The notes under the pieces: generated by a model
What the model saw: the letters and a program-made list of their open reading frames with translations, nothing else
What the model was told of the DNA's origin: nothing
Databases searched by the model: none
Position numbers and translations under genes: made by a program
Part shown: positions 4,768-40,367 of the stretch, in pieces
Numbering within the stretch: position 1 is the first letter of the stretch
Layout: every line of letters starts with the position of its first letter
NCBI GenBank assembly: GCA_001784725.1
Contig: MFRX01000009.1
Location: forward strand, 22,335-68,414
Reading direction: 5' to 3'
Origin: Candidatus Moranbacteria bacterium RIFCSPHIGHO2_02_FULL_40_12b
Lineage (GTDB): Bacteria; Patescibacteriota; Minisyncoccia; Moranbacterales; 2-12-FULL-40-10
Length of the DNA: 46,080 nucleotides

Positions 4768-4851
4768 CTTTACGAATTACGAATTTAGTACGAATATACG
4801 AATATCTTGATGATAAATTAGTATATTCGTAAGTGATTTGTAATTAGTAAA
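4768..4851. repeat. Heptamer-based palindromic intergenic element (TACGAAT class), copy upstream of hpf
   Basis: Left arm tttacgaattacgaatttagtacgaatatacgaat. It is answered by the right arm agtatattcgta...gtaattagtaa. Near-identical to the copy at 20443..20524. Confidence 0.8.
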
Positions 4852-5232: not shown

Positions 5233-5344
5233 AAATAAAGATAAAATCCTTTCCACTTTCAAATTTATAAACTGATTATTTTACAGTGTGTTATATGAAA
5301 ACCTCTCTTTGACTAAGGGGGATTTTTTTTGTAGAATAACTAAA

Positions 5345-5421
5345 GGAATTATGAATCAGGAATTACGAATTAAGGGTATTTTTTTGTTTTCCATAATTCA
5401 TAATTCTTTATTCATTATTCG
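5345..5421. repeat. Heptamer-based palindromic intergenic element (GAATTAT/CATAATT class), upstream of secA
   Basis: ggaattatgaatcaggaattacgaattaag faces ccataattcataattctttattcattattcg as an inverted repeat. Confidence 0.7.
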
Positions 5422-5426
5422 AACAA

Positions 5427-8096
5427 ATGTCCATTTTCAAAAAAATCTTCGGTTCCAATGAAAGGGAAATCGCGAAAATGCGGCCGATCGTGGAGAAAAT
5501 AAATTCACTCGGGCCGGCAATCGCCAGACACTCCGATGAAGAGCTGAAGAATAAGACAACTGAATTTAAAGAATTATTAAAAAATGGCAAGTCGCTGGAT
5601 GAAATACTGCCGGAGGCCTTTGCGGTAGTTCGGGAAGCGGCCGACCGGGTGATAAACGAGCGCCATTTTGACGTTCAGCTTTTAGGCGGGATAATCCTTC
5701 ATCAGGGAAAAATCGCCGAGATGAAAACCGGAGAGGGCAAGACCCTGACTTCGACGCTGGCTTTATATCTCAACGCACTGGAAGGAAAAGGCGCCCATGT
5801 TGTCACTGTCAATGATTATCTGGCTAAAAGGGACTGCAACTGGATGGGCGCGATTTTTCATTTCCTCGGAATTTCCACGGCCTGCATCATCCATGACGCG
5901 TCGTATATTTACGAACCGAAAATTGTTGACAGCGACGAAGTGAGCGTGGAAATGGAAAATCTAAAGCTGGTGAGCAGGAAAGACGCCTATAACGCCGACA
6001 TCACTTACGGCACTAACAATGAATTCGGATTTGATTATCTGCGGGACAATATGGTGCAGGATTTGGGACAAATGAGCCAAAGGGAATTGAATTATGCCAT
6101 TGTTGACGAAGTGGACTCTATTCTCATTGATGAAGCGCGCACCCCACTCATTATTTCCGCGCCGGACACCGAATCAACCAAAATGTATCAAAAATTCGCC
6201 CAGATAATTCCGCGCCTCAAGGAAAAGGACGACTATGAAATTGACGAAAAAATGAAAGCGGTTACGCTCACTGACGATGGAATAAATAAAGTAGAACAGA
6301 TTCTGGGAATGGGTAATTTATATGAGCCGGGAAAGATAAATTATGTTCACCACTTGGAGCAGTCGCTTAAAGCCGAGGTTCTTTTTAAGCGCGACAGGGA
6401 CTATGTCGTGAAGGACGATCAGGTGATTATCGTTGACGATTTCACGGGCCGGCTGATGCAGGGACGGCGCTACAGCGAAGGGCTTCACCAGGCGATTGAA
6501 GCCAAGGAAGGCGTGCAGGTGCAAAGAGAATCAAGAACATTAGCCACTATAACTTTCCAGAATTATTTCCGGATGTACAAGAAACTTTCGGGAATGACCG
6601 GCACGGCGATTACCAGCGCGGAGGAATTTGCCAAAGTGTATAAACTGGATGTTACTGAAATTCCAACCAATAAGCCGATGATAAGAATTAATCACCCCGA
6701 CATGATTTACAAGACGGAAGAAGGAAAGTTCAATGCGATTGTTGAAAGAATAAAAGAAATAAACAAGGCCGGCCAGCCAATCCTGGTCGGAACGATTGCC
6801 ATTGAAAAATCGGAATATTTAAGCGCTTTGCTTTCAAGGGAAGGGGTGAATCACGAAGTTCTTAACGCCAAACAGCATGAAAAAGAAGCGGTGATTGTCG
6901 CTGAAGCCGGGCATAAAAACTCCGTGACAATCGCTACCAATATGGCGGGAAGAGGAACGGATATAAAATTGGGAGAAGGAGTGCGGGAACTAGGCGGACT
7001 TTTTATTTTAGGCACTGAACGGCATGAAGCGCGCCGCATTGACAATCAATTGCGGGGACGCGCCGGACGGCAAGGGGATTCCGGAATGTCGCAATTCTTT
7101 GTTTCCCTTGAAGACGAACTGATGAGGAGATTTGGGGGGGATAAGCTCAAAAATATGATGGATACCCTCGGCCTTCCCGAGGACCAGCCGATCCAGAATA
7201 AAATAATTTCCAAGACCATTGAAAGCGCCCAGTCCAAGATAGAAGGTTTTAATTTTGACATCCGGAAACATGTTCTGGAATACGACGATGTGATGAATAA
7301 GCAAAGGGAAGTGATATACAAAAAAAGGAAGGAAATACTTGGAAAGGAAGATATTAAAAATAATATAACTGATGACGCCAAAGACGAAATGGAAAAAATT
7401 GTCTCGCTTCATTGCATTGACGAAGAAGTCAATTGGGATATTGATTGCGTTTTCAATGAGGCGAATAATATATTTCCAATTAAGGAAGAAGCCAGGAATA
7501 ATTTTGAAACAATCCGCGGCGATAAGTCAAAAAATGAAATTGAGAAAAAAGGCGCGATGCTGGATTATCTGGTGGATCTGATGAAACAGGCCTATAACCA
7601 AAAAGAAGCGGAGATTAGTCCGGAAAATATGAGGCGCGTTGAAAAATTAGTCGCGCTCCAAACGATTGACAATTACTGGATGAATCATTTGGACGAAATC
7701 GATTATATCAGGCAGGGAATAGGGCTCCGCGGTTATGGCCAGAGGGATCCTTTGGTGGAATATAAACGGGAGGCCTTTGATATGTTTTCACACCTGGTCG
7801 CAAATATCCAATCGGCGATAGTGCGGACGATGTTCAGGATTTCAATGGTTCCGGCTGGAACGCAAAAAACGCAGGAGCAGGAAAAAAATATGCAATTCAA
7901 AGGGGCGGATGAAAGCATCGGGCAATTCGGCGGAAAAAATAATATAAAGCCGTCTGAATCTGGCGAAAGTGAAGAAATAAAACAAAAGCCGATTATCAAT
8001 AAAGATAAAGTCGGCCGCAATGATCCCTGTCCGTGCGGAAAAACTGATCCAAATACTGGTAAGTCAATTAAATATAAAAAATGTTGCGGGAAATAA
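5427..8096 (+). CDS. secA: Preprotein translocase ATPase SecA
   Basis: 889 aa. Contains MKTGEGKTL (Walker A), VDEVDSILIDEARTPLIIS, TNMAGRGTDIKLG, and a C-terminal zinc finger CPCG...KKCCG. Confidence 0.97.
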   Translation: MSIFKKIFGSNEREIAKMRPIVEKINSLGPAIARHSDEELKNKTTEFKELLKNGKSLDEILPEAFAVVREAADRVINERHFDVQLLGGIILHQGKIAEMKTGEGKTLTSTLALYLNALEGKGAHVVTVNDYLAKRDCNWMGAIFHFLGISTACIIHDASYIYEPKIVDSDEVSVEMENLKLVSRKDAYNADITYGTNNEFGFDYLRDNMVQDLGQMSQRELNYAIVDEVDSILIDEARTPLIISAPDTESTKMYQKFAQIIPRLKEKDDYEIDEKMKAVTLTDDGINKVEQILGMGNLYEPGKINYVHHLEQSLKAEVLFKRDRDYVVKDDQVIIVDDFTGRLMQGRRYSEGLHQAIEAKEGVQVQRESRTLATITFQNYFRMYKKLSGMTGTAITSAEEFAKVYKLDVTEIPTNKPMIRINHPDMIYKTEEGKFNAIVERIKEINKAGQPILVGTIAIEKSEYLSALLSREGVNHEVLNAKQHEKEAVIVAEAGHKNSVTIATNMAGRGTDIKLGEGVRELGGLFILGTERHEARRIDNQLRGRAGRQGDSGMSQFFVSLEDELMRRFGGDKLKNMMDTLGLPEDQPIQNKIISKTIESAQSKIEGFNFDIRKHVLEYDDVMNKQREVIYKKRKEILGKEDIKNNITDDAKDEMEKIVSLHCIDEEVNWDIDCVFNEANNIFPIKEEARNNFETIRGDKSKNEIEKKGAMLDYLVDLMKQAYNQKEAEISPENMRRVEKLVALQTIDNYWMNHLDEIDYIRQGIGLRGYGQRDPLVEYKREAFDMFSHLVANIQSAIVRTMFRISMVPAGTQKTQEQEKNMQFKGADESIGQFGGKNNIKPSESGESEEIKQKPIINKDKVGRNDPCPCGKTDPNTGKSIKYKKCCGK

Positions 8097-8275
8097 AAAA
8101 TCCCGGGACCGGAGTAATCAGAGTGCTTTGCAAACTAACTACTCCGCCGGGGGCCTAATTGCGCCTTTCTGTATTCATACGGCAAGGCAGGTATGATAAG
8201 CTTGGCCAACAGCTTATCGCAATATTATTATCTTAGAATTTATATATAGCCCTGTCAATAAATACAAAAAATGCC

Positions 8276-8737
8276 ATGGGAAGTAAGAAAATAATGACTC
8301 TTTGCATAATTCATCAGGGAAATAAAATTCTTTTAGGAATGAAGAAAAGGGGTTTTGGAAAAGGACGGTATAATGGATTCGGCGGGAAAGTTCATGACGG
8401 CGAAAGTGTGGAAGAGGCGGCTAAAAGGGAACTAATTGAAGAAGCCGGAATCAGATGTAAAGAGCTGGATTTAATCGGCGTGCTTGAATTTTCGTGGACA
8501 AATAAACCGGAAATTTTGGAAGTGCATATTTTTAAAGCCGAAAAAATTGAGGGCGAACCGACTGAAAGCGAAGAAATGAAACCGGAATGGTTCCATATTG
8601 ATGAAATACCCTTCCATTCCATGTGGTCGGACGATCCCCACTGGTTTCCGCTTTTTTTGGAAAACAAAAAATTCAAAGGTAATTTTGTTTTTGACGATTC
8701 TGATAAGATGGTTCAATATAATTTAGAAGAAATTTAA
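8276..8737 (+). CDS. Nudix hydrolase (MutT/MTH1-like)
   Basis: 153 aa with the Nudix box GGKVHDGESVEEAAKRELIEEAGI. Confidence 0.85.
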   Translation: MGSKKIMTLCIIHQGNKILLGMKKRGFGKGRYNGFGGKVHDGESVEEAAKRELIEEAGIRCKELDLIGVLEFSWTNKPEILEVHIFKAEKIEGEPTESEEMKPEWFHIDEIPFHSMWSDDPHWFPLFLENKKFKGNFVFDDSDKMVQYNLEEI

Positions 8738-8777
8738 CATATAACACAACTGTTCGGCCGAAGGATTGTGTTATATG
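8738..8777 (+). terminator. Hairpin directly after the Nudix stop codon (12-bp perfect stem)
   Basis: catataacacaa (8738..8749) pairs with ttgtgttatatg (8766..8777). There is no clean U-tract, so terminator function is tentative. Confidence 0.45.
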
Positions 8778-8800
8778 ATATTATATTTAAAGGTAAGCTT

Positions 8801-8857
8801 GCATTATTCATAATTCTTAATTCCAGCAATATGGTTTCTTTTGAAAAATCCGTCGGG
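8801..8857 (+). repeat. Left direct repeat of the island (attL-like)
   Basis: 57 nt repeated at 12809..12879. The right copy carries an extra 14 nt. The 41-nt exact core is TTAATTCCAGCAATATGGTTTCTTTTGAAAAATCCGTCGGG (8817..8857 = 12839..12879). Confidence 0.9.
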
Positions 8858-8881
8858 ATTGTGGTGTTTTGGTTAATATAA
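8831..8881 (+). pseudogene. Duplicated 5' fragment of the Nudix gene at 12853 (16 codons, then stop)
   Basis: The first nine codons (ATG GTT TCT TTT GAA AAA TCC GTC GGG) are identical to those of the intact gene at 12853. The sequence then diverges and reaches TAA at 8879..8881. Confidence 0.7.
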
Positions 8882-8921
8882 CTAAAAAATGGCTTAAATA
8901 AAGCATAAAGTCGAAACCTTC

Positions 8922-8950
8922 TTGACTTTTTTGTTTTTGCGTGCTAGTTT
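8922..8950 (+). promoter_or_regulatory. Putative sigma70-type promoter of the island's first gene
   Basis: TTGACT, a 17-nt spacer, then TAGTTT. The spacer and -35 closely resemble the promoter at 30546..30574. Confidence 0.45.
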
Positions 8951-9021
8951 GTCAGGTTCCTTATATTTTTAAATTGGAAAGTTCTTTGATTTTATGCGCG
9001 AGGAGGAGGTGAAAATATTTC

Positions 9022-9058
9022 GTGCGGTATTCTAAGGGGCGGGAGTTTCACTTCTGCC
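9022..9058 (+). repeat. Hairpin module U0 (GTGCGGT word plus GGGGCGGGAG/CTTCTGCC hairpin)
   Basis: 8-bp stem 9038..9045 / 9051..9058, including two G-T (G-U) pairs that are only valid on the + strand. Followed by CTGCCA. Lies about 35 nt upstream of the 9094 start. Confidence 0.6.
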
Positions 9059-9093
9059 ACGGAAAATAATCTTGAATTTTTTAGGAGGTAAAA

Positions 9094-9735
9094 ATGGCAC
9101 CAAAAACAGCAACGCTTCCGGAAACGGAAACATCTGAACAGATGAAAATCAATACATATAAGGTAACCTGCAGGGGAATTTCCCCGATTCTCATGAATCC
9201 AGCGACAGAGGAACTGCTCAATCAGCTTGACGGCGGAGCAGGAGCGCGTACTCCAAAAGATATGGTTTCAACTCCGGAGCAGAAAGCTGAGAGGAAAATA
9301 ATCCGGGATGAAAACGGGAATGTCGGCGTGCCGTCCAGTTATTTATTCAGTTGCTTGCGCGAAGCGGGCCGGCGCGTTCCATATGACGCCAAGACGAAGA
9401 TTTCCACTAAAGAAAGCACAATTCTTCCGGGACTGATGTCAATCGTGGAAATTTTCATTCCTTTTATTGATCAAGATGCGAAATGGGAAGTGGACCGGAG
9501 AAGAGGCATGCTTCCCAAAGATGGAACCGCGGTTTGTATCACCCGCCCGCGTTTTAACGAGTGGGCATTTGCAGTGACAATAGAAGTGGATGAAGGACAG
9601 GTTTCGCCTGGAAAAATAAAGGAACTTTTCAAGGTAGCGGGAAGAATGGTCGGCCTTGGGGACTTCCGTCCATCATGCAATGGACAGTTTGGAAGGTTCC
9701 GGGTAGAAAACTGGGAGAAGATAAAAGAAACTTAG
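9094..9735 (+). CDS. RAMP-like protein (Cas5/Cas6/Cas7-type motifs); function unknown
   Basis: 213 aa with the strong RBS taGGAGGtaaaaATG. Motif GVPSSYLFSCLREAGR (aa 78-93) resembles the RAMP P-x-S-S-h-K-G-x-h-R motif. The C-terminal glycine-rich loop is VGLGDFRPSCNGQFGRFRV (aa 186-204). Confidence 0.45.
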   Translation: MAPKTATLPETETSEQMKINTYKVTCRGISPILMNPATEELLNQLDGGAGARTPKDMVSTPEQKAERKIIRDENGNVGVPSSYLFSCLREAGRRVPYDAKTKISTKESTILPGLMSIVEIFIPFIDQDAKWEVDRRRGMLPKDGTAVCITRPRFNEWAFAVTIEVDEGQVSPGKIKELFKVAGRMVGLGDFRPSCNGQFGRFRVENWEKIKET

Positions 9736-9753
9736 TAAAATACCTTTCGTTCT

Positions 9754-9829
9754 GTGCGGTTAAGTTTCGTACTGCCTTCCCCAGCAGGGTTCGGTGGAGT
9801 TCGGAGCAGGGACTCAATGAGTCCCTGCT
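9754..9829 (+). repeat. Hairpin module U1
   Basis: GTGCGGT (9754..9760), AGCAGGGTTCGG (9783..9794), and an 11-bp perfect stem agcagggactc / gagtccctgct (9805..9815 / 9819..9829). Confidence 0.65.
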
Positions 9830-9886
9830 GAAATTACTAATGTACTTAAGAGTTGCAATAAAAACTGTTCTCTACTGTTTAGTTCA

Positions 9887-9940
9887 GTGCGGTAGGGCGC
9901 AGCAGGGTGCGGGGCAGGACAGAAGAATTTCTGTCCTGCC
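9887..9940 (+). repeat. Hairpin module U2
   Basis: GTGCGGT (9887..9893), AGCAGGGTGCGG (9901..9912), and a 12-bp perfect stem ggcaggacagaa / ttctgtcctgcc (9913..9924 / 9929..9940), followed by CTGCCATC. Confidence 0.7.
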
Positions 9941-10030
9941 ATCTCTTTCAGAGATTTTAATAAAATTGAAATTTCTAGAAGGGAGAATTTTTTTCCAATG
10001 AGTTCTTTATAATTTTAAAAGGAGATTGAA

Positions 10031-10240
10031 ATGAGGAAGAAAAACAGAGATAGAAAAGAGAAAGAGATTGTAATAAGAGTATCAGGAGTAGAAAGTTTTG
10101 TTCAAGGCAGCAGTAATAATTTGATTATAGATGTTGAAATGAATAAAGAGAATATCTGGATGGCAAAAGTTGAGTCGGAAATTACTCTAAAAGAAATATT
10201 ATACAGAATATGGCCGAACATCGCGCGCATTGTAAAGTAA
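10031..10240 (+). CDS. Small hypothetical protein (69 aa) inside the island
   Basis: Good RBS aaAAGGAGattgaaATG. Occupies the only AT-rich gap between GC-rich hairpin blocks. No recognisable motif. Confidence 0.5.
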   Translation: MRKKNRDRKEKEIVIRVSGVESFVQGSSNNLIIDVEMNKENIWMAKVESEITLKEILYRIWPNIARIVK

Positions 10241-10241
10241 C

Positions 10242-10343
10242 GTGCGGTGGTGTGTGGCTCGGTCCAGCTAGGAGTTAGTAGCGCAGTGAGCGGTCCGGTC
10301 CGCCAGAGCTTGGGGCAGAGTCACTGATAATTCAAACTCTGCC
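10242..10343 (+). repeat. Hairpin module U3
   Basis: GTGCGGT (10242..10248), then about 65 nt of GC-rich sequence, then stem ggcagagt / actctgcc (10314..10321 / 10336..10343), followed by CTGCCAAATTTT. Confidence 0.6.
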
Positions 10344-10429
10344 AAATTTTCTAAAAATTTTAAACCATTGAAATTTTTGAAAAGTTCTTTGAATCATAGA
10401 CAAGGCAGTGTTTAGTCTTGTCCGGTTGC

Positions 10430-10487
10430 GCGCGGTTCTCGACGGCGCAGTAAAGTTTGGAGCAGGGGATTTATTTGGATTTCCTGC
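10430..10487 (+). repeat. Hairpin module U4
   Basis: GCGCGGT (10430..10436). Stem 10462..10471 / 10478..10487 with G-U pairs valid only on the + strand. Followed by CTGCCAG. Confidence 0.55.
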
Positions 10488-10508
10488 CAGAACGCTTAAC
10501 GCAGATTT

Positions 10509-10586
10509 AGCAGGGTACGGCGGAGCAGCGCGCGGTGTAGTTGGGTTGTGTCGCGCATGGGGCAGGAATTAATTCTAATTCCTGCC
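10509..10586 (+). repeat. Hairpin module U5
   Basis: AGCAGGGTACGG (10509..10520), GCGCGGT (10530..10536), and stem ggcaggaatt(a) / (t)aattcctgcc (10561..10586), followed by CTGCCATCC. Confidence 0.7.
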
Positions 10587-10681
10587 ATCCCTTTCCGAGA
10601 ATTTCATTATTTGGAATTTTCAGAAAGGGAATAAAAAGTGTCTTTGGCACTTTCCCATTTGTCCTTTAAAAAGGAGAAAAA

Positions 10682-12466
10682 ATGAAACATCAGAAATATC
10701 TCGATCTTCTGGAATTTTTTCCGGTTGATCAATATCCAAAGCCATTGAAAAATCAAGTGCTGGCTTTGGAAGCAGCAGAAAAAAATGCATCAACGCTTTT
10801 AGAATTGCCGACTGGTTCAGGTAAAACTGCAATCGGCTACACTTTCTTGAAGGCGTTGAAAAGTTCGAGTAAGTCGCCACTTTTCTACATTGTTCCAAAT
10901 AAGACATTAGTTAATCAAGTGCGTGAACTTCATCCCGATGTTAAGGTTGTTTATGGACGTAATGAATATCTCTGTCCTTATTACAGAGACGGCAATGTGA
11001 CAGCCGATGAATCGCCATGTTCAATGTTGGATTGTCCGCATCGGGTAGATCAGGAAACAGGAGAAACCGAAGCTGGAGGAGTTGAGCCGTGTCCCTATCT
11101 TCAGGCCAAATATGAAGCCAAAAGAGGAGACATAATTGCCTGCACTATGTCTTTTTATCTTTTCACCCATCTTTTTTCCAAAGAATGGGATGAGACGGCC
11201 GGACTAGTGATTGATGAAGTGCATCGGTTGGCAAATGTTTTCCGCAATTCTTTGAGTTATGAGATTACGGATTATTATTTAGACAGGATAATCGAGCTCC
11301 TTTCGGAAATTTCTCCAAACGAAGCCAAGATCATATCAGAATTCAGGCGTAAGATGATGAAAATTATCAAGCGCCGTCCACCCAGAACCGCAACGCTTTT
11401 AAAAGCAGGCGAGGTTGCCGAGCTCTTGAGAGAACTTTACAAAATCGATTCGAAAAAAATGCGGAAAGCCGTCAAGGAAGCGGTTAAGCGAGGTGGCATT
11501 GATGTGGTTGCTCAGCGTGAGGTGCTGAAAAAAACCGAAATGATCACTCGCAACCTGATCCGTTATCTCAAGTCATTGGAATTTTCCTTGCCGACGGCCA
11601 AAAGAAATCCTCTCAACTATACTTACGCTTTTTATGAGAAGGATTCGGATGGAAATGGAAAATCGCAGTATCGCTTGGTAATCAGGGCATATTATGTGGC
11701 TCCACTTATCCAAAAAATATTGCCTGAAAAAACACTGGCTTATTCGGCAACAATCGGCGATCCCCAAATCATCAAATATGAAACCGGGATAGATTTTTCT
11801 TTCTATTCTTTTCCGTCTAACTTTCCGTCAAGAAATACTAAAATTTTTCTATCGACTGACATGCCTAATCTTGCGATGAAGGCCAGAAGAAAGCAGGATC
11901 TTACGCGTTCTTTGCGCAAGGTCGCAAAAGCGGCAAAAATCTTTGCTGATTCCGGCATACGGTCGCTCGTTGTGGTTGTTTCCGAGATGGAAAGGCAGAA
12001 GTTTATGATGTTGGCGAAAGAAGAAGGCGTTGAGGCGATAAGTTATGGCAACGGCGTAAAACCCAGAGTCGCCGCTGAAAAATTCAAGAGTGGTGGGAGC
12101 GATGTTCTCGTGGGCACGGTGTCCAACTATGGCGAGGGTGTGGATCTTCCTAAGAAGATTGCGCAAGTGACATTTTTTCTGCGGCCGGGATATCCCAATC
12201 CGCATGATCCGCTCACGATTTTTGAAGAACGAAGATATGGAAGCGTGCGCTGGAAAATTTGGAACTGGCGGGTGATGATAGAAGCGCTTCAGGTGCGCGG
12301 ACGCAATGTGCGGAGCGCCAAGGATACCGGTGTGACTATCTTCATTTCCCAGCAGTTCGGACGGTTCCTTTATGCCAGTCTTCCGGAGTGGCTCAAGGAA
12401 TCATTTGAGGGCAAATTGACTTGGGATGAATGTATTACTGATGCAAAGACATTGCTGGCAAAATAA
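10682..12466 (+). CDS. XPD/Rad3/DinG-family superfamily-2 helicase with Fe-S cluster domain
   Basis: 594 aa with RBS aaAAGGAGaaaaaATG. Walker A is LELPTGSGKT and the DEAH-type box is VIDEVHRL. Four Cys lie between them (LCPYY, SPCSMLDCPH, EPCPY), as in the XPD 4Fe-4S domain. Also has SATIG, YGEGVDLP and QVRGRNVRS (motifs III, V, VI). Confidence 0.85.
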   Translation: MKHQKYLDLLEFFPVDQYPKPLKNQVLALEAAEKNASTLLELPTGSGKTAIGYTFLKALKSSSKSPLFYIVPNKTLVNQVRELHPDVKVVYGRNEYLCPYYRDGNVTADESPCSMLDCPHRVDQETGETEAGGVEPCPYLQAKYEAKRGDIIACTMSFYLFTHLFSKEWDETAGLVIDEVHRLANVFRNSLSYEITDYYLDRIIELLSEISPNEAKIISEFRRKMMKIIKRRPPRTATLLKAGEVAELLRELYKIDSKKMRKAVKEAVKRGGIDVVAQREVLKKTEMITRNLIRYLKSLEFSLPTAKRNPLNYTYAFYEKDSDGNGKSQYRLVIRAYYVAPLIQKILPEKTLAYSATIGDPQIIKYETGIDFSFYSFPSNFPSRNTKIFLSTDMPNLAMKARRKQDLTRSLRKVAKAAKIFADSGIRSLVVVVSEMERQKFMMLAKEEGVEAISYGNGVKPRVAAEKFKSGGSDVLVGTVSNYGEGVDLPKKIAQVTFFLRPGYPNPHDPLTIFEERRYGSVRWKIWNWRVMIEALQVRGRNVRSAKDTGVTIFISQQFGRFLYASLPEWLKESFEGKLTWDECITDAKTLLAK

Positions 12467-12530
12467 ATACTTGCCAATGTAGTGCCCGTTTATGTAGAGT
12501 ATTGTTACGTATGGCTTAAGTATTGCGCGG

Positions 12531-12556
12531 GACGGGAATTCATTTGAATTCCCGTC
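12531..12556 (+). repeat. Hairpin module U6
   Basis: 11-bp perfect stem gacgggaattc / gaattcccgtc, preceded by GGG and followed by GAAATTTTT. Confidence 0.65.
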
Positions 12557-12626
12557 GAAATTTTTCAGCACAGCTTATGATGTTTTGAATGCTAATGTTT
12601 TGCTGAGTCACGTTCAGTTCAGTATG

Positions 12627-12653
12627 GGACGAGAATTCAAATGAGTTCCAGCC
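12627..12653 (+). repeat. Hairpin module U7 (degenerate copy of U6)
   Basis: gggacgagaattcaaatgagttccagcc aligns to U6 but has several stem mismatches. Confidence 0.4.
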
Positions 12654-12737
12654 ATAAAAATTTTACTGTGCCAGGTCATGTTCGGTATAGTTGGCTCCGG
12701 TGGAGAAGGGCATGGCAGTCAATGGTCTTCAACATGG

Positions 12738-12772
12738 GGCAGTGATTTCAATAAATCTCTGCCATTTTTTTT
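12738..12772 (+). terminator. Hairpin module U8, acting as an intrinsic terminator at the island's right end
   Basis: Stem ggcagtgattt / aaatctctgcc (one T-T mismatch), followed by A and then T8 (12765..12772). Confidence 0.7.
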
Positions 12773-12808
12773 GGAAAATTAGTGTGTTATAATTTAAAAC
12801 ACGCCACC

Positions 12809-12879
12809 GCATTATTTTTGATTCTTAATTCACAATTTTTAATTCCAGCAATATGGTTTCTTTTGAAAAATCCGTCGGG
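12809..12879 (+). repeat. Right direct repeat of the island (attR-like)
   Basis: Matches 8801..8857. Contains the start codon and first 9 codons of the intact Nudix gene. Confidence 0.9.
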
Positions 12880-13317
12880 GCGGTTTTGTTCCGGCGGGTA
12901 AACAGCAAAAATAAATATCTTCTGCTTCATTATAAGTCCGGCCATTGGGATTTTCCCAAAGGGCATCAGGAAAAAGGCGAGAATGACGAAGTAACGCTCC
13001 GAAGGGAAGTAAAAGAAGAAACCGGAATCCAGGACATCAAAATAATTCCGGGATTCAGCAAAAAAATCGGATATTTTTATGTTGCCAAAGGAAAAGAAAG
13101 AAAAAAACGGCTGAAGGTTCAAAGAGGAATAAAAATTAAAAAACAAGTTATCTACTATTTAGCCGAAACGCGGGAAAAAGAAGTGAAAATTTCTTTTGAA
13201 CATGTCGGCTTTCGGTGGCTGGACTATTCCCAGGCGCTCAAGAAAATTACTTTCAAAAATTCAAAAAATGTGCTCATTTTGGCTAATAATTATTTTGCTA
13301 AAATACCGGGGTCTTGA
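12853..13317 (+). CDS. Nudix hydrolase (Ap4A-hydrolase-like)
   Basis: 154 aa with the Nudix box GHQEKGENDEVTLRREVKEETGI, preceded by HWDFPKG. Confidence 0.85.
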   Translation: MVSFEKSVGAVLFRRVNSKNKYLLLHYKSGHWDFPKGHQEKGENDEVTLRREVKEETGIQDIKIIPGFSKKIGYFYVAKGKERKKRLKVQRGIKIKKQVIYYLAETREKEVKISFEHVGFRWLDYSQALKKITFKNSKNVLILANNYFAKIPGS

Positions 13318-13349
13318 TATTTTCAAAGAATTGGTTAATAATATTGTAG

Positions 13350-15056
13350 ATGACTCTAAAAAGAAAACTTCTTCTCAAATTTCTCCTGATAATAGTTCTT
13401 GCATTTGGCGCGGGGCTGGTTTCGTATCCCAATGCGGTAAAAAAAATACCGCCGGTTTATAACGCTCTGAATAAGCTGAAAATAAATCTGGGACTGGATT
13501 TGCAGGGAGGGATTCATCTGGAATACAAAGCCGATTTGAGCAATACCGAAAGTTCTAAAGTGAATGACGCGATGCAAGCGGCGCAGGATGTTATCGAACG
13601 GAGAGTAAACGCTTTTGGGGTGGCCGAGCCGATGATTTACACTACGCGGTCGGGAAGCGAACACCGCCTAATCGTGGAACTGGCGGGCGTCAAAGACATA
13701 GAGAAAGCGAAAGAGATGATAAAAGAGACGCCGTTTTTGGAATTCAAAGAGGAAAAAACTGAAGAGGAAATAAAGGAGACGGAGAAAATATTTGACTCAA
13801 TCAACGAACAAACGAAGAGACAGGCGGAAGAAATATTGCAGAGAGCTTTAAATGGCGAAAATTTTGAAGAGCTGGTGAAAAAATATAGCGAAGATCCCGG
13901 ATCTAAAGACGCGGGCGGGGATTTGGGATTTACGAAAAAAGGTACTTTTGTTCCGGAGTTTGACAAAGTGCTTTTCGAAGGAAATCTGAAAAACGGCAAA
14001 GTTTATCCCGCTTTGGTGGAAACGCAATTTGGCTGGCACATTATAAAATTCATTGACTCCCGCGGGGAGGGAGAAAATAAGGAAGTCCATTCCGCGCATA
14101 TTCTTTTGGCGAAAAGGACAGCCGATATGTATCCTGATTTAAAATATAAATCAACGGGGCTCACAGGAAAAAATTTAAAAAGCGCGAGCGCTGATTTTCA
14201 AGGGCAGGGGCTAACCGAACCGGTTGTTTCCTTGCAATTTGATGGCGAAGGGACGAAACTTTTCGCGGATTTGACTAAAAAGAATGTCGGGAAAACGATT
14301 GCGATTTATCTTGACGGGCAAACAATCAGCGCCCCCAGGGTCAATGAAGAGATTACCAGTGGCAGCGCGGTGATATCAGGTGATTTTACGACTGAAGAAA
14401 CTAAAAACTTGGCCAGGCGGTTGAATGAAGGCGCTTTGCCCGTGCCGTTGGAATTGATTTCACAGCAGAGCGTGGAGGCGTCACTGGGAGAAATATCGCT
14501 TCAAAAAAGTTTAAAAGCCGGCATAATCGGGCTTGTTCTCGTCATTATTTTTATGGTTCTTTACTACCGTTTTCTTGGAGTAATCGCCTCACTCGCGCTT
14601 CTCATATATTCCGCGATTATGATTTCTATTTTCAAATTGTCGTCCGGAACTCCCTGGCAAATTACGCTTACGCTTCCGGGCATCGCGGGATTCGTCCTTT
14701 CCATTGGAATGGCAGTGGACGCCAATATTTTGATTTTTGAGCGCACTAAAGAGGAAATAAGGCGAGGCCGGAATATTTTAAGCGCCATTGACGAGGGATT
14801 CAAACGCGCCTGGACATCAATCCGCGACGGAAATGTTTCTTCTCTTATCACCGCTTTCATTTTAATGATGATGGGTACCGGATTCGTCAAGGGCTTCGCG
14901 GTGACATTAATAGTTGGAGTTCTGGTATCCATGTTTACGGCAGTCGTTATTTCCCGGACGCTGATAAAATTTTTAGTAAGAGAATGGATTTCCAATAAAT
15001 TATATTTAATAGGGGTGAAAAGAAAAGATGTTGCTGACAGTGAGATTAGGAAATAA
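13350..15056 (+). CDS. secD: Protein-export membrane protein SecD with an inserted parvulin-type PPIase domain
   Basis: 568 aa. N-terminal TM segment, LGLDLQGGIHL, C-terminal TM bundle (GIAGFVLSIGMAVDANILIFER). Internal segment FEELVKKYSEDPGSKDAGGDLGF...FGWHIIKF is PpiC/parvulin-like. Confidence 0.9.
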   Translation: MTLKRKLLLKFLLIIVLAFGAGLVSYPNAVKKIPPVYNALNKLKINLGLDLQGGIHLEYKADLSNTESSKVNDAMQAAQDVIERRVNAFGVAEPMIYTTRSGSEHRLIVELAGVKDIEKAKEMIKETPFLEFKEEKTEEEIKETEKIFDSINEQTKRQAEEILQRALNGENFEELVKKYSEDPGSKDAGGDLGFTKKGTFVPEFDKVLFEGNLKNGKVYPALVETQFGWHIIKFIDSRGEGENKEVHSAHILLAKRTADMYPDLKYKSTGLTGKNLKSASADFQGQGLTEPVVSLQFDGEGTKLFADLTKKNVGKTIAIYLDGQTISAPRVNEEITSGSAVISGDFTTEETKNLARRLNEGALPVPLELISQQSVEASLGEISLQKSLKAGIIGLVLVIIFMVLYYRFLGVIASLALLIYSAIMISIFKLSSGTPWQITLTLPGIAGFVLSIGMAVDANILIFERTKEEIRRGRNILSAIDEGFKRAWTSIRDGNVSSLITAFILMMMGTGFVKGFAVTLIVGVLVSMFTAVVISRTLIKFLVREWISNKLYLIGVKRKDVADSEIRK

Positions 15057-15192
15057 TATTAAGACCTTAATTTCTAATTTTCAATTTCTAATTTCTAAAC
15101 AATTTATAATTTTTCAATGATTAAATTTTAAAATTGGATAATTGAATTATTGAAAATTGTTTGAAAATTTAAAATTGTGAATTGAAAATTTT
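15057..15192. repeat. AT-only heptamer palindromic intergenic element (AATTTCT class)
   Basis: aatttctaattttcaatttctaatttctaaacaattt faces aaattgtttgaaaatttaaaattgtgaattgaaaatt as an inverted repeat. Same style as 25205..25335. Confidence 0.65.
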
Positions 15193-20442: not shown

Positions 20443-20524
20443 TTTTACGAATTACGAATTTCATACGAATATACGAATAAATCTTTTGAGAAATTCGTAT
20501 ATTAGTAATTGATTAGTAATTAAT
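20443..20524. repeat. Heptamer-based palindromic element (TACGAAT class), upstream of porG
   Basis: ttttacgaattacgaatttcatacgaatatacgaata ... aaattcgtatattagtaattgattagtaattaat. Near-identical to 4768..4851. Confidence 0.8.
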
Positions 20525-23597: not shown

Positions 23598-24533
23598 ATG
23601 AATAAAAAACTAACCCAAAAATTCGCTCCCGGGCATTCAACTTGCGCCGGATGCGGGATTCCGGCGATCGTGCGGACGGTTTTAGACGCGACCAATGATC
23701 CGGTGGTTGTCGTTAATGGAACGGGATGCCTGGAAGTTACCTCTACGCTCTATCCCTATACTTCCTGGAAAGTTCCGTATATCCATAACGCATTTGAAAA
23801 TGCCGCGGCGACGGCGGCGGGAATTGACGCGGCTCAAAAAGTTCTGGAGAAAAAAGGGAGAGGGGGTAAGAAGGCGAAGATTATCGCGTTTGCCGGCGAC
23901 GGCGGAACATATGATATCGGACTGCAGTCGCTTTCAGGAGCGTTGGAGCGCGGCCACAATTTTCTTTATGTCTGCTACGACAACCAGGGATATATGAACA
24001 CCGGCGGGCAAAGATCCAGCGCTTCACCCTACGGCGCCAGCACCGAGACAACTCCTTCAAGCGGAAAAGATATCGGAAACGAGCTTTATCGGAAGGACCT
24101 TATGCAAATTGTGGAAGCGCATCATATCAAATACCTGGCGCAGGCCAATGTGGCGTATATTGAGGACTTAAAAATGAAAGCCAAAAAGGGACTGGAGACC
24201 GAAGGGCCGTCGTTTTTGCTGGTGCTTCAGCCCTGCACCAACCTCTGGAAATACCCGACTTCACTCTATGTCCATTACGGGAAGTCGGCGACGGAAACCA
24301 ATTTCTGGCCGCTCTATGAAATTTCCGCCAAAGGCGGATCCGCCTCGGGCGGAGAAAATGTAAAATATAAAATAAATTATACTCCAAAAGAAAGAAAACC
24401 GATTGAGGAATTCCTGAAAGGGCAGGGAAGATTCAAACATCTATTCAAACCGCATAATAAAAAAGTGATTGAAAAAATGCAGAAAATGGTGGATGAAAAG
24501 TGGGAGGAACTTATAAAAAGAAGCAAGAATTAA
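23598..24533 (+). CDS. porB: 2-oxoacid:ferredoxin oxidoreductase, beta subunit (TPP-binding)
   Basis: 311 aa with CAGCG, the TPP motif GDGGTYDIGLQSL...NQGYMNTGGQ. Confidence 0.9.
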   Translation: MNKKLTQKFAPGHSTCAGCGIPAIVRTVLDATNDPVVVVNGTGCLEVTSTLYPYTSWKVPYIHNAFENAAATAAGIDAAQKVLEKKGRGGKKAKIIAFAGDGGTYDIGLQSLSGALERGHNFLYVCYDNQGYMNTGGQRSSASPYGASTETTPSSGKDIGNELYRKDLMQIVEAHHIKYLAQANVAYIEDLKMKAKKGLETEGPSFLLVLQPCTNLWKYPTSLYVHYGKSATETNFWPLYEISAKGGSASGGENVKYKINYTPKERKPIEEFLKGQGRFKHLFKPHNKKVIEKMQKMVDEKWEELIKRSKN

Positions 24534-24551
24534 GAAGTATGAATTAAGCGG

Positions 24552-24624: not shown

Positions 24625-24685
24625 AATAGTAGTAATATAAAATATAAAAAACAATTTAGCAATATAACAATTTAACAATAAAGCA

Positions 24686-25204
24686 ATGAATAATTTTATC
24701 TGCCAAATTTGCGGGGACGCGTATCTGGGCGAGGAAAAACCGAAGAACTGCCCGTTTTGCGGGGCGCGGGAGCATTTTATCAAAGTTGGGAAAGAAGCGG
24801 ATCCGATCGTAAATCAGAAAATAGAGATTAGTGAAATTTCCGGCAGAAATTTGGAGGAAACATTGGCGCTGGAACTAAGGGCTAATCTAATTTATCTCTG
24901 TATGGCTAGCGTAGCGCATAGATATGAGCTGAAGGCGATGTATAAAAGATTGGCTAAAGTAGAAATGGAACACGCGGTGATTGTCACTAAATTATTAAAT
25001 ATTGCCTTGCCGAAAGTGGAAGAACAAACCTGCAGTCAGGATGATATAGAAAATTTCAAAAAAACAATAGAACTGGAAGAACACGCTGCAGGATTATATT
25101 CCAAATTTGCCAAAGAGTCAGAAGAACAGAATATTAAAATATTTTTTACCGCGCTTAATCAGGCGGAGCAAGATCATATAGAGCTTATAAAAAACTATTT
25201 GTAG
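24686..25204 (+). CDS. Rubrerythrin-family protein (N-terminal rubredoxin-like CxxC pair plus ferritin-like four-helix bundle)
   Basis: CQICG...CPFCG at the N-terminus. E/H-containing helices are ELRANLIY, EMEHA, EEHAAGLY and EQDHIELI. Confidence 0.75.
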   Translation: MNNFICQICGDAYLGEEKPKNCPFCGAREHFIKVGKEADPIVNQKIEISEISGRNLEETLALELRANLIYLCMASVAHRYELKAMYKRLAKVEMEHAVIVTKLLNIALPKVEEQTCSQDDIENFKKTIELEEHAAGLYSKFAKESEEQNIKIFFTALNQAEQDHIELIKNYL

Positions 25205-25335
25205 TTTTTTATAAGAATTTTTAATTTCCAATTTTTAATTTTTAAATAATTTCTAATGTTTAAATGTTTAAAAATTTATAAACTAAGATTTATTTATAAA
25301 ATTACAAAATTAAAAATCATAAAATTTACTTAACT
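25205..25335. repeat. AT-only heptamer palindromic intergenic element
   Basis: aatttttaatttccaatttttaatttttaaataatttctaat ... aaattacaaaattaaaaatcataaaattt. Same style as 15057..15192. Confidence 0.55.
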
Positions 25336-28433: not shown

Positions 28434-28534
28434 CTTTACTAATTACGAATCAATTACTAATATACTAATTTTTTAAAATTTATTCATATATAATTCGTTA
28501 ATAATTCGGATATAATTAGAATAGCAATTCGAAT
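28434..28534. repeat. Heptamer-based palindromic element (ACTAATT/ACGAAT class), upstream of ftsE
   Basis: ctttactaattacgaatcaattactaatatactaatt ... taattcgttaataattcggatataattagaatagcaattcgaat. Confidence 0.7.
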
Positions 28535-29217: not shown

Positions 29218-29316
29218 CTTTACGAATTACGAATCAATACTAATATACGAATCTTTTTGGTTTGATTAAAGACATAGGCATCATTAGTATATTCATATAA
29301 AATTCGTAATTAGTAA
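29218..29316. repeat. Heptamer-based palindromic element (TACGAAT class), upstream of ftsX
   Basis: ctttacgaattacgaatcaatactaatatacgaatc ... cattagtatattcatataaaattcgtaattagtaaa. Confidence 0.8.
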
Positions 29317-29326
29317 AAAATTTATT

Positions 29327-30250
29327 ATGAAATTATTAAAACTTTGGCGGACATTTAAAGAAGGTTTCAAAAATTTTTACCGCAATGGCTGGCTTAGCGT
29401 TGCGACAGCCGTTATTTTAACGCTGTCTCTTTATATTGTCGGCATATTCGCGATTGTCGGCGTTGCTTCCAATGTTCTTCTGAAAAATATCCAAGGCGTG
29501 GCTAATATTAGCGTTTATTTTAATCCTGAAGTGAGCGAGGCGAAAATTATGGAAATCAAAAGTAATCTGGAAAGTTTCCGGGAAATTAATTCCGCGGAGT
29601 ATGTTTCAAAAGAACAAGCGATGCAGGAGCTGCTGTCTATGGAAGATATTCAGGACGCCATCAGCAGAGCGGTCGAGGAAGTTGGCAATGACGCTTTGCC
29701 CGCGTCGCTGATAATCACCGCGAAGCAATCCGACCAATATGAAATTATTTCTCAGGCGATACGCGGCAGTTATGGCGGTGAAATAGAAAAAATTGAAGAC
29801 AATAAAAAGATTATTGATGAAATAAACGGAATAACAAAGCTTTCAGAAAGAGCCGGCTTGATTTTGGGAATTATTTTTCTGCTCATCGCGGTGCTCATTA
29901 CATTCAATACCATAAGAATAACTATGTATTCCCACCGGCAGGAATTTGAGATTATGCGGCTGGTGGGCGCTTCAAACTTGTATGTTCGGATGCCTTTCGT
30001 GTTTGAAGGAATTTTTTACGGGCTTTTCACCGCGATAACCGCCACTCTTTTTCTGTTCGCCACGGTAAAATTTGTTTTTCCGGTTCTGATCCGGGAGTCG
30101 GCCTCGCAAAGCGCCAAAGTTTTTTTTGAACAGGTTAATTCGTTTTATTTCCAGTATGTCTGGCTCGTGTTCGGGATTCTTCTACTTTTTGGAATGATTA
30201 TGGGCGTTATCAGCGGGTTTATCGCGATCAGAAGATACCTGAAAGTGTAA
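29327..30250 (+). CDS. ftsX: Cell-division permease-like protein FtsX
   Basis: 307 aa with an N-terminal TM segment, a periplasmic domain and three C-terminal TM segments (FEIMRLVGAS motif). Confidence 0.88.
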   Translation: MKLLKLWRTFKEGFKNFYRNGWLSVATAVILTLSLYIVGIFAIVGVASNVLLKNIQGVANISVYFNPEVSEAKIMEIKSNLESFREINSAEYVSKEQAMQELLSMEDIQDAISRAVEEVGNDALPASLIITAKQSDQYEIISQAIRGSYGGEIEKIEDNKKIIDEINGITKLSERAGLILGIIFLLIAVLITFNTIRITMYSHRQEFEIMRLVGASNLYVRMPFVFEGIFYGLFTAITATLFLFATVKFVFPVLIRESASQSAKVFFEQVNSFYFQYVWLVFGILLLFGMIMGVISGFIAIRRYLKV

Positions 30251-40336: not shown

Positions 40337-40367
40337 CTAACAACTAATAACCAACAACTAACGACGA

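What the first reader, a model, noticed from the sequence alone, without database searches (positions are those of the whole stretch)
8801..12879. Island of about 3.9 kb inserted into the 5' end of a Nudix gene, bounded by 57/71-nt direct repeats, with no recombinase
The promoter-proximal region, start codon and first nine codons of the Nudix gene at 12853 are duplicated upstream.
- 8801..8857 matches 12809..12879, with a 41-nt exact core at 8817..8857 = 12839..12879. Weaker similarity extends further on both sides.
- The left copy continues for only 16 codons before a stop. The right copy continues as the intact gene.
- Removing 8858..12838 would restore a simple tandem Nudix-Nudix arrangement.

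This is the signature of site-specific integration that regenerates the target gene's 5' end. Yet the three ORFs between the repeats are a RAMP-like protein, a 69-aa ORF and an XPD/DinG helicase. None looks like a tyrosine or serine recombinase, a DDE transposase or an HUH enzyme. The element is therefore either mobilised in trans, an immobilised remnant, or uses an unrecognised mechanism.
Basis: seen in the sequence. Interest (0 to 1): 0.75.

Follow-up and report, generated by a model that had tools for sequence, protein, structure and literature searches.

The report
VIPR RNA-guided cassette inserted between Nudix genes
The island is a compact VIPR system (a small Cas7-like protein, a helicase and eight repeat-coded guide RNA genes, a kind of RNA-guided DNA-targeting system first described in 2026) that was inserted into the start of a housekeeping gene in a Candidatus Moranbacteria genome, duplicating 57 bases of its target and carrying no recombinase of its own.

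Summary
The direct repeat is real: 8801-8857 matches 12809-12879, with an exact 41-nt core. The claimed weaker similarity beyond it is not above chance. Related Moranbacteria keep SecA-Nudix1-Nudix2-SecD-SecF with the two Nudix genes 15-27 nt apart and no island, so this is an insertion.

- **Protein:** the "RAMP-like" ORF is a Vipr protein. Its family profile hits PDB 36pp, the SUSP1 Vipr, at E=8e-11 over the full length, and the model has a Cas7-like fold.
- **Helicase:** an XPD/DinG-type enzyme with four invariant cysteines. Its best defence-model hit is the type IV CRISPR DinG.
- **Guide RNAs:** the "non-coding" DNA holds eight guide RNA (vrRNA) genes. Each is a period-5 xGYnn tract followed by a GGGGCAG...CTGCC hairpin. 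Such tracts occur nowhere else in the 46 kb, on either strand.

The same Vipr + helicase + vrRNA cassette sits between unrelated housekeeping genes in eight other contigs, never next to a recombinase. Four of the nine cassettes have locus-specific flanking repeats of about 20-77 nt, above every mismatched control. This argues against one att site. It fits insertion with target duplication, by a mechanism that remains unknown.

VIPR has been published, so this is a new member of a known kind. The recurrent flanking duplications are not mentioned in the text of the VIPR discovery preprint that I could search.

The parts
8276..8737 (+). Nudix-1 gene, the left neighbour of the insertion
   Evidence: Pfam NUDIX E=6.6e-18. 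It lies directly next to Nudix-2 in relatives L014, L015, L019 and L025.
8801..8857 (+). Left copy of the direct repeat: Nudix-2 leader, start codon and first 9 codons
   Evidence: The exact 41-nt core is 8817-8857.
8830..8880 (+). Truncated pseudo-start of Nudix-2 (16 codons, then a stop)
   Evidence: Read from the sequence.
8921..9093 (+). Cassette-borne promoter-like region and conserved leader of vipr, with a tail-like hairpin at 9036-9058
   Evidence: Aligns with the region upstream of vipr in L094 and L093. Hairpin energy -11.4 kcal/mol. Promoter function is inferred.
9094..9735 (+). vipr gene: a 213-aa minimal RAMP, the RNA-guided DNA-binding subunit
   Evidence: PDB 36pp_D SUSP1 Vipr at E=1.2e-4 with the single sequence and E=8.1e-11 over the full length with the profile. 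phrog_4652 E=7e-18. AF2 model pLDDT 84; best folds are Csm3, Cas7 and Cmr4 at E about 1e-7. G-rich loop GLGDFRP..G.FG.F is nearly invariant.
9748..9830 (+). vrRNA 1: 11 pentamer units, then tail hairpin 9803-9830
   Evidence: tail is in alignment A5.
9866..9940 (+). vrRNA 2: 9 units, then tail hairpin 9911-9940
10031..10240 (+). 69-aa orphan ORF. It is not part of the conserved cassette and may not be a gene.
   Evidence: Its only database match is itself. It has no counterpart in L093-L095. Its upstream region duplicates the helicase upstream region (D3 and D14).
10241..10343 (+). vrRNA 3: about 14 units with one 6-nt unit, then tail hairpin 10312-10343
   Evidence: Its tail is nearly identical to a tail in L093.
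10404..10488 (+). vrRNA 4: 11 units, then tail hairpin 10459-10488
10509..10586 (+). vrRNA 5: 10 units, all xGYnn, then tail hairpin 10559-10586
10682..12466 (+). Accessory (vap) gene: a 594-aa XPD/DinG-family SF2 helicase with a 4-Cys FeS-type motif
   Evidence: PADLOC typeIV_DinG PDLC01439 E=2.6e-39 over the full length. Pfam Helicase_C_2, DEAD and DEAD_2. PDB XPD E=3e-9. C98, C113, C118, C137, the Walker A motif and DExH are invariant in 8 homologues. It is below every NCBIfam cut-off.
12478..12556 (+). vrRNA 6: 8 units, then variant tail hairpin 12529-12556
12581..12653 (+). vrRNA 7: 9 units, then a weak tail hairpin 12626-12653
   Evidence: (-6.3 kcal/mol).
12669..12775 (+). vrRNA 8: about 13 units, tail hairpin 12736-12763 and a T-run. 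This is the right end of the cassette.
   Evidence: It is homologous to the last vrRNA of L093.
12809..12879 (+). Right copy of the direct repeat, continuing into the intact Nudix-2 gene
12853..13317 (+). Nudix-2 gene, the target of the insertion, intact
   Evidence: Pfam NUDIX E=4.1e-15.

Best explanation
The island (about 8858-12808) is a chromosomal VIPR (Viral Interference Programmable Repeat) system of the helicase-associated kind.

**How it works.**
- Shown: it encodes a Vipr protein, an XPD/DinG-like helicase, and eight small RNA genes on the same strand.
- Shown: each RNA gene consists of 8-14 pentanucleotide units (xGYnn, the YNNNG variant of the GGY/NN code) followed by a conserved-shape hairpin tail.
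- Inferred by analogy with the experimentally studied SUSP1 and P. fulva systems: Vipr protomers polymerise along each vrRNA, one per unit. They flip out the fixed bases and present the variable bases for gapped pairing with double-stranded DNA of an invader. The helicase is then recruited to the R-loop, as CasDinG is in type IV-A CRISPR.

**How it got there.**
- Shown: the cassette arrived by horizontal transfer and was inserted into the leader/5' end of Nudix-2.
- Shown: 57 nt of the target (leader plus 9 codons) is duplicated on both sides, so Nudix-2 stays intact.
- Inferred: the duplication is a by-product of the insertion event, either a long target duplication or one-sided homology-facilitated illegitimate recombination. 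It is not an att site of a dedicated recombinase.
- Inferred: the 41-nt identical core could allow RecA-type excision and re-insertion within the population.
For: **Vipr identity.** (profile E=8.1e-11, query 9-194 against chain 4-190 of 202). (Cas7/Csm3 fold). (G-loop).

**vrRNAs.**
- Tracts with at least 7 of 9 GY at period 5 occur 8 times in the window. All are on the + strand and all are inside the island, with none elsewhere in 2 x 46 kb. GY frequency is 0.09, so my estimate of the chance expectation is about 0.2.
- All 8 are followed by a hairpin.
- In nine loci there are 65 + strand tracts, all in the cassettes' intergenic DNA. The 2 minus-strand tracts overlap them.
- All 11 pairs of the tail hairpin show compensatory changes. 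93% of cells are paired against 70% in shuffles, and 0 of 500 shuffles reach the observed values.
- Unit composition is G 80% at position 2 and Y 89% at position 3. The other positions are near background.

**Definition of VIPR, its variants and helicase vaps.** bioRxiv 10.64898/2026.04.26.720920.

**Insertion.** Empty Nudix1-Nudix2 junctions in L014, L015, L019 and L025.

**Cassette recurs at other loci without a recombinase.**

**Flanking repeats elsewhere.** Matched left/right flank scores are window 94, L177 103, L093 40 and L176 35, against a maximum of 30 in 72 mismatched pairs. In L093 the repeat is the 3' end of the upstream peptidase gene. In L177 it is the region just upstream of alaS.
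Against: - No expression, RNP or targeting data exist for this system.
- No perfect target for vrRNA 1, 4 or 5 was found in IMG/VR, and none in the window.
- The pairing rule for the YNNNG variant is not given in the paper's text, so the target patterns I used are an assumption.
- Five of nine cassettes show no significant flanking repeat, so the duplication is not universal, or it decays.
- The tails in the covariation alignment were chosen partly because they fold, which inflates the pairing percentage.
- No strain-level empty site or circular junction was found. However, the metagenome collection returned no hit even for the repeat core, which the island itself carries twice, so it apparently does not hold this population.
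Confidence: 0.8

Rival explanations
1. It is a site-specific integrative element. The 41-57-nt repeat is attL/attR, and the island is moved in trans by a tyrosine or serine integrase encoded elsewhere in the genome or on a helper phage.
For: - The repeats flank the island exactly and regenerate the 5' end of the target gene.
- A more distant Vipr + helicase pair (L184/L185, 41% identity) lies in an element with two phage-integrase genes.
Against: - Related cassettes occupy eight other, unrelated loci, and their flanking repeats are local sequence with no shared motif.
- There are no conserved cassette ends and no terminal inverted repeats.
- No recombinase was found in the 22 large ORFs of the 46-kb window that were scanned, or next to any of the eight related cassettes.
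- Similarity outside the repeat, which an element-borne copy of the target would give, is at chance level.
Confidence: 0.1
2. It is a degraded type IV CRISPR-Cas locus that has kept only Csf2 (Cas7) and the DinG helicase (Csf4) and has lost its array and other cas genes.
For: - The helicase's best defence-library hit is typeIV_DinG at E=2.6e-39.
- The small protein has a Cas7-like fold.
Against: - There is no CRISPR array anywhere in the window.
- The small protein hits no Cas family in PADLOC, Pfam or NCBIfam, but it hits the solved Vipr over its full length.
- The locus holds eight pentamer-repeat RNAs, not crRNAs.
- The helicase keeps four invariant cysteines, whereas CasDinG has only a vestigial FeS domain (PMC10450177 abstract).
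- The two-gene architecture is conserved in nine loci, so it is not a decay product.
Confidence: 0.03
3. It is an old local duplication of the Nudix-2 start, unrelated to how the intervening genes arrived.
For: - AT-rich heptad leaders are common in this genome and expand by slippage.
Against: - 41 identical nt, including 27 nt of coding sequence, exactly bracket a 4-kb block that is absent from relatives.
- Analogous bracketing is seen at three other loci.
Confidence: 0.03

Closest known systems
VIPR systems (Vipr + vap + vrRNAs; bioRxiv 10.64898/2026.04.26.720920 and 10.64898/2026.04.26.720927). The studied examples are the type II systems of Escherichia phage SUSP1 and a Pseudomonas fulva prophage.
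   Same: - A small RAMP protein homologous over its full length to the solved SUSP1 Vipr.
- A minimal two-gene locus.
- No CRISPR array.
- Several roughly 70-110-nt RNA genes made of pentamer repeats plus a structured 3' tail, placed in the intergenic DNA around the genes.
   Different: - The repeat is xGYnn (the YNNNG variant), not GGYNN.
- The tail is a simple GGGGCAG...CTGCC hairpin. A pseudoknot was not examined here.
- The accessory gene is a 594-aa XPD/DinG-like helicase, not a small DNA-binding protein.
- The host is a Candidatus Moranbacteria (CPR) chromosome, and the cassette sits between housekeeping genes, not in a phage.
- It is flanked by a target duplication.
- The paper says types III-V carry nuclease or helicase vaps. 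I infer that this is the helicase type, but I could not see the figures that define the types.
Type IV-A CRISPR-Cas (Csf1-Csf2-Csf3-Cas6 complex plus CasDinG)
   Same: - A Cas7-like RNA-binding subunit paired with a DinG-family helicase.
- No nuclease.
- Presumably helicase action at an RNA-guided R-loop.
   Different: - No CRISPR array.
- No Cas5, Cas6 or Cas8-like genes.
- Guides are pentamer-coded.
- The helicase keeps the 4-Cys motif.
Genomic islands integrated at the ends of genes, with att direct repeats
   Same: - A direct repeat that contains the end of the target gene brackets the island.
- The target gene stays intact.
   Different: - No integrase.
- No common target among related cassettes.
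IS1634/IS1549-type insertion sequences with long, variable target duplications (recalled from memory, not tested here)
   Same: Long flanking duplications of local sequence, variable in length (about 20-77 nt here).
   Different: - No transposase.
- No terminal inverted repeats.
- Cassette ends are not conserved.

Membership tests
VIPR system | Vipr protein: a minimal RAMP with a G-rich loop, homologous to known Viprs | tested here: met
   The profile of 29 homologues hits PDB 36pp_D (SUSP1 Vipr) at E=8.1e-11 over the full length. The AF2 model matches Csm3/Cas7 at E about 1e-7 and TM about 0.5. GLGDFRP..G.FG.F is nearly invariant.
VIPR system | vrRNAs of tandem pentanucleotide repeats (GGY/NN, or the variants NNNGG, YNNNG, NNNNG), at least 4 units | tested here: met
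   There are eight tracts of 8-14 units. G is 80% and Y is 89% at the fixed positions. The tracts occur only inside the island and on the gene strand. The pattern corresponds to YNNNG (for the definition).
VIPR system | A conserved, structured 3' tail after the repeat tract | tested here: met
   8 of 8 tracts are followed by a hairpin. In 23 tails from four loci, all 11 pairs show compensatory changes, and 0 of 500 shuffles reach the observed values. Caveat: the tails were partly selected for folding.
VIPR system | A minimal locus of vipr plus one accessory gene, with no CRISPR array and no other cas genes | tested here: met
   The same two-gene architecture is found in eight other loci.
VIPR system | vrRNAs are expressed, bind Vipr and direct gapped recognition of DNA | not testable with these tools
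   This needs small-RNA sequencing and biochemistry.
VIPR system | Natural targets in competing mobile elements, found with the skip rule | tested here: inconclusive
   No perfect match for three guides in IMG/VR. No hit in the window reaches the paper's 80% NN-match threshold: the best is vrRNA 1 at 17 of 22, one above the shuffled-guide maximum of 16. Only exact patterns could be searched, and the rule for YNNNG units is assumed.
Type IV CRISPR-Cas | A CRISPR array and the Csf1/Csf2/Csf3 (+Cas6) effector genes | tested here: not met
   No array. The small protein hits no Cas model.
Type IV CRISPR-Cas | A CasDinG/Csf4 helicase | tested here: inconclusive
   The PADLOC typeIV_DinG model matches over the full length at E=2.6e-39. 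But no NCBIfam model reaches its cut-off, and the 4-Cys motif is retained, unlike the vestigial FeS domain of CasDinG.
Site-specific integrative element | Its own tyrosine/serine recombinase, DDE transposase or HUH enzyme | tested here: not met
   None was found in the other large ORFs of the window that were scanned either.
Site-specific integrative element | The same att core and target used by related elements | tested here: not met
   Nine cassettes lie at nine different loci, and the flanking repeats are locus-specific.
Site-specific integrative element | An empty site in relatives, and a circular or excised form | tested here: inconclusive
   Empty synteny is seen only in distant relatives, at 52-61% amino-acid identity. 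All 12 near-identical contigs carry the island or stop short of it. Scans for the attB junction and for the core returned nothing.
Transposon with target-site duplication | Terminal inverted repeats and conserved ends | tested here: not met
   No inverted repeat lies at the cassette ends. The ends do not align between loci beyond the promoter and the last vrRNA.

The most novel reading that the evidence does not exclude
The Vipr + helicase + vrRNA cassette of CPR bacteria is itself a recombinase-less mobile unit. In this reading, its insertion next to host promoters and gene ends generates long, variable target duplications (about 20-77 nt) by a mechanism not yet described. One example would be staggered breaks at the two edges of an R-loop or transcription bubble, processed with the help of the cassette's helicase. 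Spread within populations would then follow by recombination between the duplicated copies and DNA uptake.
Probability: 0.12. Interest if true: 0.85.

Novelty: new member of a known kind. Interest (0 to 1): 0.55.

Why it matters
VIPR is a very recently described class of RNA-guided DNA recognition, proposed to be older than CRISPR. Only phage and prophage type II systems have been studied experimentally.

This locus gives a clean, fully delimited chromosomal example from a Candidatus Moranbacteria (CPR) genome. It has a DinG/XPD-type helicase partner, eight annotated guide RNAs with a simple hairpin tail, and an exact insertion site. It therefore links VIPR to the Cas7 + DinG logic of type IV CRISPR. 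It also offers eight guides with which to look for targets in groundwater phages.

Separately, four of nine independent cassettes are bracketed by duplications of local sequence and none has a recombinase. This raises a testable question about how such minimal defence cassettes move. The searchable text of the VIPR discovery preprint does not address that question.

Tried and rejected
- **Rfam over 8000-14000.** Only chance-level hits, and no hammerhead or other known RNA. There are no tRNAs near the island.
- **Metagenome scan for the predicted empty-site junction, then for the 41-nt core.** Both returned zero matches. Even the island itself was not found, so the collection lacks this population and the result says nothing about excision.
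- **Contigs with identical Nudix proteins.** All carry the island or end before it. The population is nearly clonal.
- **Extended similarity outside the repeat.** Not above shuffles. I first read it as support for a Campbell-type hybrid att site and dropped that argument.
- **Terminal inverted repeats or conserved cassette ends.** None.
- **Recombinase elsewhere in the window.** None among 20 further ORFs. Four ORFs had no Pfam hit at all.
- **Self-targets of the eight guides in the window.** At or near the level of shuffled guides, and none reaches 80% NN match.
- **Exact gapped-pattern scans of IMG/VR for vrRNA 1, 4 and 5.** No hit.
- **The 69-aa ORF.** An orphan with no relatives outside this organism.
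- **The helicase in IMG/VR.** Only relatives at 27% identity or less over substantial alignments, and none next to a Vipr. Viral Vipr homologues (38% identity or less) lack this helicase.
- **Consensus promoter and terminator scan of the island.** Not enriched over shuffles, so promoter assignments remain inference.

Full report
**1. The observation**

The window section reads SecA (5427-8096), Nudix-1 (8276-8737), the island, Nudix-2 (12853-13317), SecD and SecF.

- The repeat finder reports 8806-8868 vs 12828-12890 (63 nt, 89%) and, in a second register, 8801-8823 vs 12809-12831.
- The stretch 8817-8857 is identical to 12839-12879.
- The indel is two units of an AT-rich heptad repeat.
- A local alignment of the two flanks scores 94, against 21.6 +/- 2.6 for shuffles.
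- The left copy runs ATG + 15 codons and stops.
- The claimed weaker similarity beyond the repeat is at chance level, z = 0.0 and 0.8. The shared GTGTTATA also precedes secA, so it is probably this genome's usual -10 element.

**2. It is an insertion**

The organism is a Candidatus Moranbacteria MAG from the Rifle aquifer. P0001 is 100% identical to the 213-aa ORF.

- Related genomes share 45-61% Nudix-2 identity. L014, L015, L019 and L025 have SecA-Nudix1-Nudix2-SecD-SecF with the two Nudix genes 15-27 nt apart.
- Several other relatives have SecA-Nudix2-SecD.
- None has the island genes at this locus.
- All near-identical contigs of the same population carry the island or end before it. The island region is 99.9-100% identical among them.
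- No strain-level empty site could be found. The metagenome collection does not contain even the repeat core, so that test is void.

**3. What the island is**

*The small protein.* The 213-aa ORF has no Pfam, PADLOC or NCBIfam hit.

- It matches phrog_4652 and the PDB chain 36pp_D, "SUSP1 Vipr protein".
- A profile of 29 homologues raises this match to E = 8.1e-11 over the whole length of both proteins.
- An AlphaFold model (pLDDT 84) finds Csm3, type VII Cas7, Cmr4 and Cas7-11 as its best folds.

*What VIPR is.* Vipr is the protein of the VIPR systems described in two 2026 preprints. A VIPR system has three parts:

- a minimal RAMP;
- an accessory vap gene;
- vrRNAs built of 9-16 pentamer units, in which fixed bases (GGY, or the variants NNNGG, YNNNG, NNNNG) alternate with variable bases. 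The variable bases read DNA with a one-base skip. A structured 3' tail follows the units.

*The guide RNAs.* I scanned the whole window on both strands for at least 7 of 9 GY dinucleotides at period 5.

- There are eight such tracts. All are on the + strand and all are inside the island.
- They lie at 9744-9808, 9862-9921, 10217-10281, 10395-10464, 10500-10569, 12474-12523, 12582-12626 and 12670-12719.
- GY frequency is 0.09, so my estimate of the chance expectation is about 0.2 tracts.
- In register they read xGYnn.
- Each tract is followed by a hairpin, mostly GGGGCAG-stem-loop-stem-CTGCC.
- Five vrRNA genes lie between vipr and the helicase, and three lie after the helicase. The last one ends in a T-run at 12775.

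*The helicase.* The 594-aa ORF is an XPD/DinG-family helicase.

- It hits Pfam Helicase_C_2, DEAD and DEAD_2 and PDB XPD.
- Its best defence model is typeIV_DinG, at E = 2.6e-39 over the full length.
- No NCBIfam model reaches its cut-off.
- Walker A, DExH and four cysteines (C98, C113, C118, C137) are invariant in eight homologues. CasDinG, by contrast, has only a vestigial FeS domain (PMC10450177).

*The 69-aa ORF.* It is an orphan, absent from related cassettes.

*No CRISPR array.* There is none in the window.

**4. The cassette elsewhere**

Vipr homologues at 50-69% identity lie next to a 593-611-aa helicase of the same family in L093, L094, L095, L176, L177, L178, L179 and L182.

- The two genes are always co-oriented and separated by 0.6-2 kb of non-coding DNA.
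- The cassettes sit between housekeeping genes: peptidase M23/TrmB, ATP synthase/alaS, relA/hisS, HU/rpsP and others.
- There is no recombinase beside any of them.
- In these nine loci, 65 period-5 tracts lie on the gene strand, all in the cassettes' non-coding DNA. The 2 minus-strand tracts overlap them.
- Over 785 units, position 2 is G in 80% and position 3 is a pyrimidine in 89%. The other three positions are near background. This is the YNNNG variant.
- In 23 tails from four loci, all 11 pairs of the hairpin show compensatory changes. 93% of cells are paired, against 70% in shuffles and 32-53% with slid partners. The tails were partly chosen for folding, which inflates the percentage. That caveat does not affect the count of 8 of 8 independently found tracts followed by a hairpin.
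- The helicase is more conserved than Vipr: 84% vs 69% to L093.
- Viral contigs hold many Vipr homologues at 38% identity or less, none with this helicase.
- A 41%-identical Vipr with a divergently oriented helicase lies in an element with integrases. A 39%-identical one lies in a phage, with a small accessory gene.

**5. How it got there**

*Site-specific integration is unlikely.*

- The nine cassettes are at nine different loci.
- Their ends do not share a motif or inverted repeats.
- No recombinase is in the island, in the other large ORFs of the window that I scanned, or beside any relative.

*The flanking repeat is not unique to this locus.* I aligned the DNA left of each cassette with the DNA right of it.

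| Locus | Matched left/right score |
|---|---|
| window | 94 |
| L177 | 103 |
| L093 | 40 |
| L176 | 35 |
| highest of 72 mismatched pairs | 30 |

- L093 and L176 were each reached by 1 of 3000 shuffles.
- In L177 the repeat is 77 nt at about 88% identity. It ends 9 nt before the alaS start codon, and each copy follows a terminator-like hairpin.
- In L093 the repeat is the last 35 nt or so of the upstream peptidase gene, found again after the cassette.
- In L176 it is about 21 nt around a TTGACA.
- Five cassettes show nothing significant.

*Interpretation.* The repeats are made of local target sequence. They differ in length and sequence, and they bracket the cassette. I read them as duplications created at insertion. 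Possible routes are a long staggered break with fill-in, replication template switching, or one-sided homology-facilitated illegitimate recombination from a donor that already had the cassette at the same gene. I could not decide between these. This is inference, and it is the weakest part of the account.

The 41 identical bases are long enough for RecA-type recombination. Such an event would excise a circle and restore the Nudix1-Nudix2 arrangement. This too is inferred.

**6. Function**

By homology, Vipr should polymerise on each vrRNA and bind matching double-stranded DNA. The helicase would act at the bound site. The paper states that types III-V carry nuclease or helicase vaps. [quoted passage not shown]

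I found no target.

- The guides do not match the window above shuffled controls in any meaningful way. This agrees with the absence of self-targets reported for other VIPRs.
- Exact gapped patterns for three guides have no hit in IMG/VR.
- Only perfect matches could be searched, and the pairing rule for YNNNG units is my assumption.

**7. Verdict**

- The insertion reading is correct.
- The "integrative element" reading is not supported.
- The identity of the island was missed.
- The island is a new member of a published kind: a VIPR system, helicase-associated, in a Candidatus Moranbacteria (CPR) chromosome.
- One point appears to be new. These cassettes repeatedly sit inside duplications of their target and never carry a recombinase. 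The main VIPR preprint's text contains no mention of "direct repeat" or "insertion".

Noticed in passing
window 4770-4805, 5344-5420, 8802-8823, 15068-15191, 20445-20521, 24525-24548, 24634-24687, 25216-25326, 28441-28534, 29220-29341, 40335-40362: AT-rich heptad tandem repeats (CATAATT, TTACGAA, AAGAATT, TAATTTC) fill many leaders directly upstream of start codons. They are often preceded by a TGTGTTATAT-like extended -10 element. This looks like a genome-wide leader or promoter-proximal feature of unknown role. The 14-nt indel between the two repeat copies of the finding is two such heptads.
   Followed up: partly
L002 6437-6448 (window 12026-12129): One population contig lacks about 104 nt inside the helicase gene, which splits it into 464-aa and 99-aa ORFs. 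This is either a natural helicase-null variant or an assembly error.
   Followed up: no
window 8990-9058: The leader upstream of vipr is conserved in sequence with L094. It ends in a tail-like hairpin (GGGGCGGGAGTTTCACTTCTGCC) but has no GY periodicity. It could be a degenerate vrRNA or a Vipr-binding autoregulatory site.
   Followed up: partly
window 9934-10030 and 10580-10681: The DNA upstream of the orphan 69-aa ORF is a 76-80% copy of the DNA upstream of the helicase gene, ribosome-binding site included. This suggests an internal duplication during expansion of the vrRNA array.
   Followed up: no
L094 1581-4216: The related cassette in L094 lies about 3.3 kb downstream of a Prok-E2 / JAB / ThiF gene set, a ubiquitin-like conjugation module of the kind found in anti-phage systems. 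That cassette may therefore sit in a defence island.
   Followed up: no
L184/L185 5954-8744: A more distant Vipr (247 aa) is divergently paired with a DinG-like helicase, inside an element that carries two phage-integrase genes. This is a possible vehicle for this gene pair outside CPR chromosomes.
   Followed up: no
window 8735-8780: A 23-nt-arm palindrome with no loop overlaps the Nudix-1 stop codon. Its 3' arm contains the -10-like TGTGTTATAT that precedes the left repeat copy.
   Followed up: no
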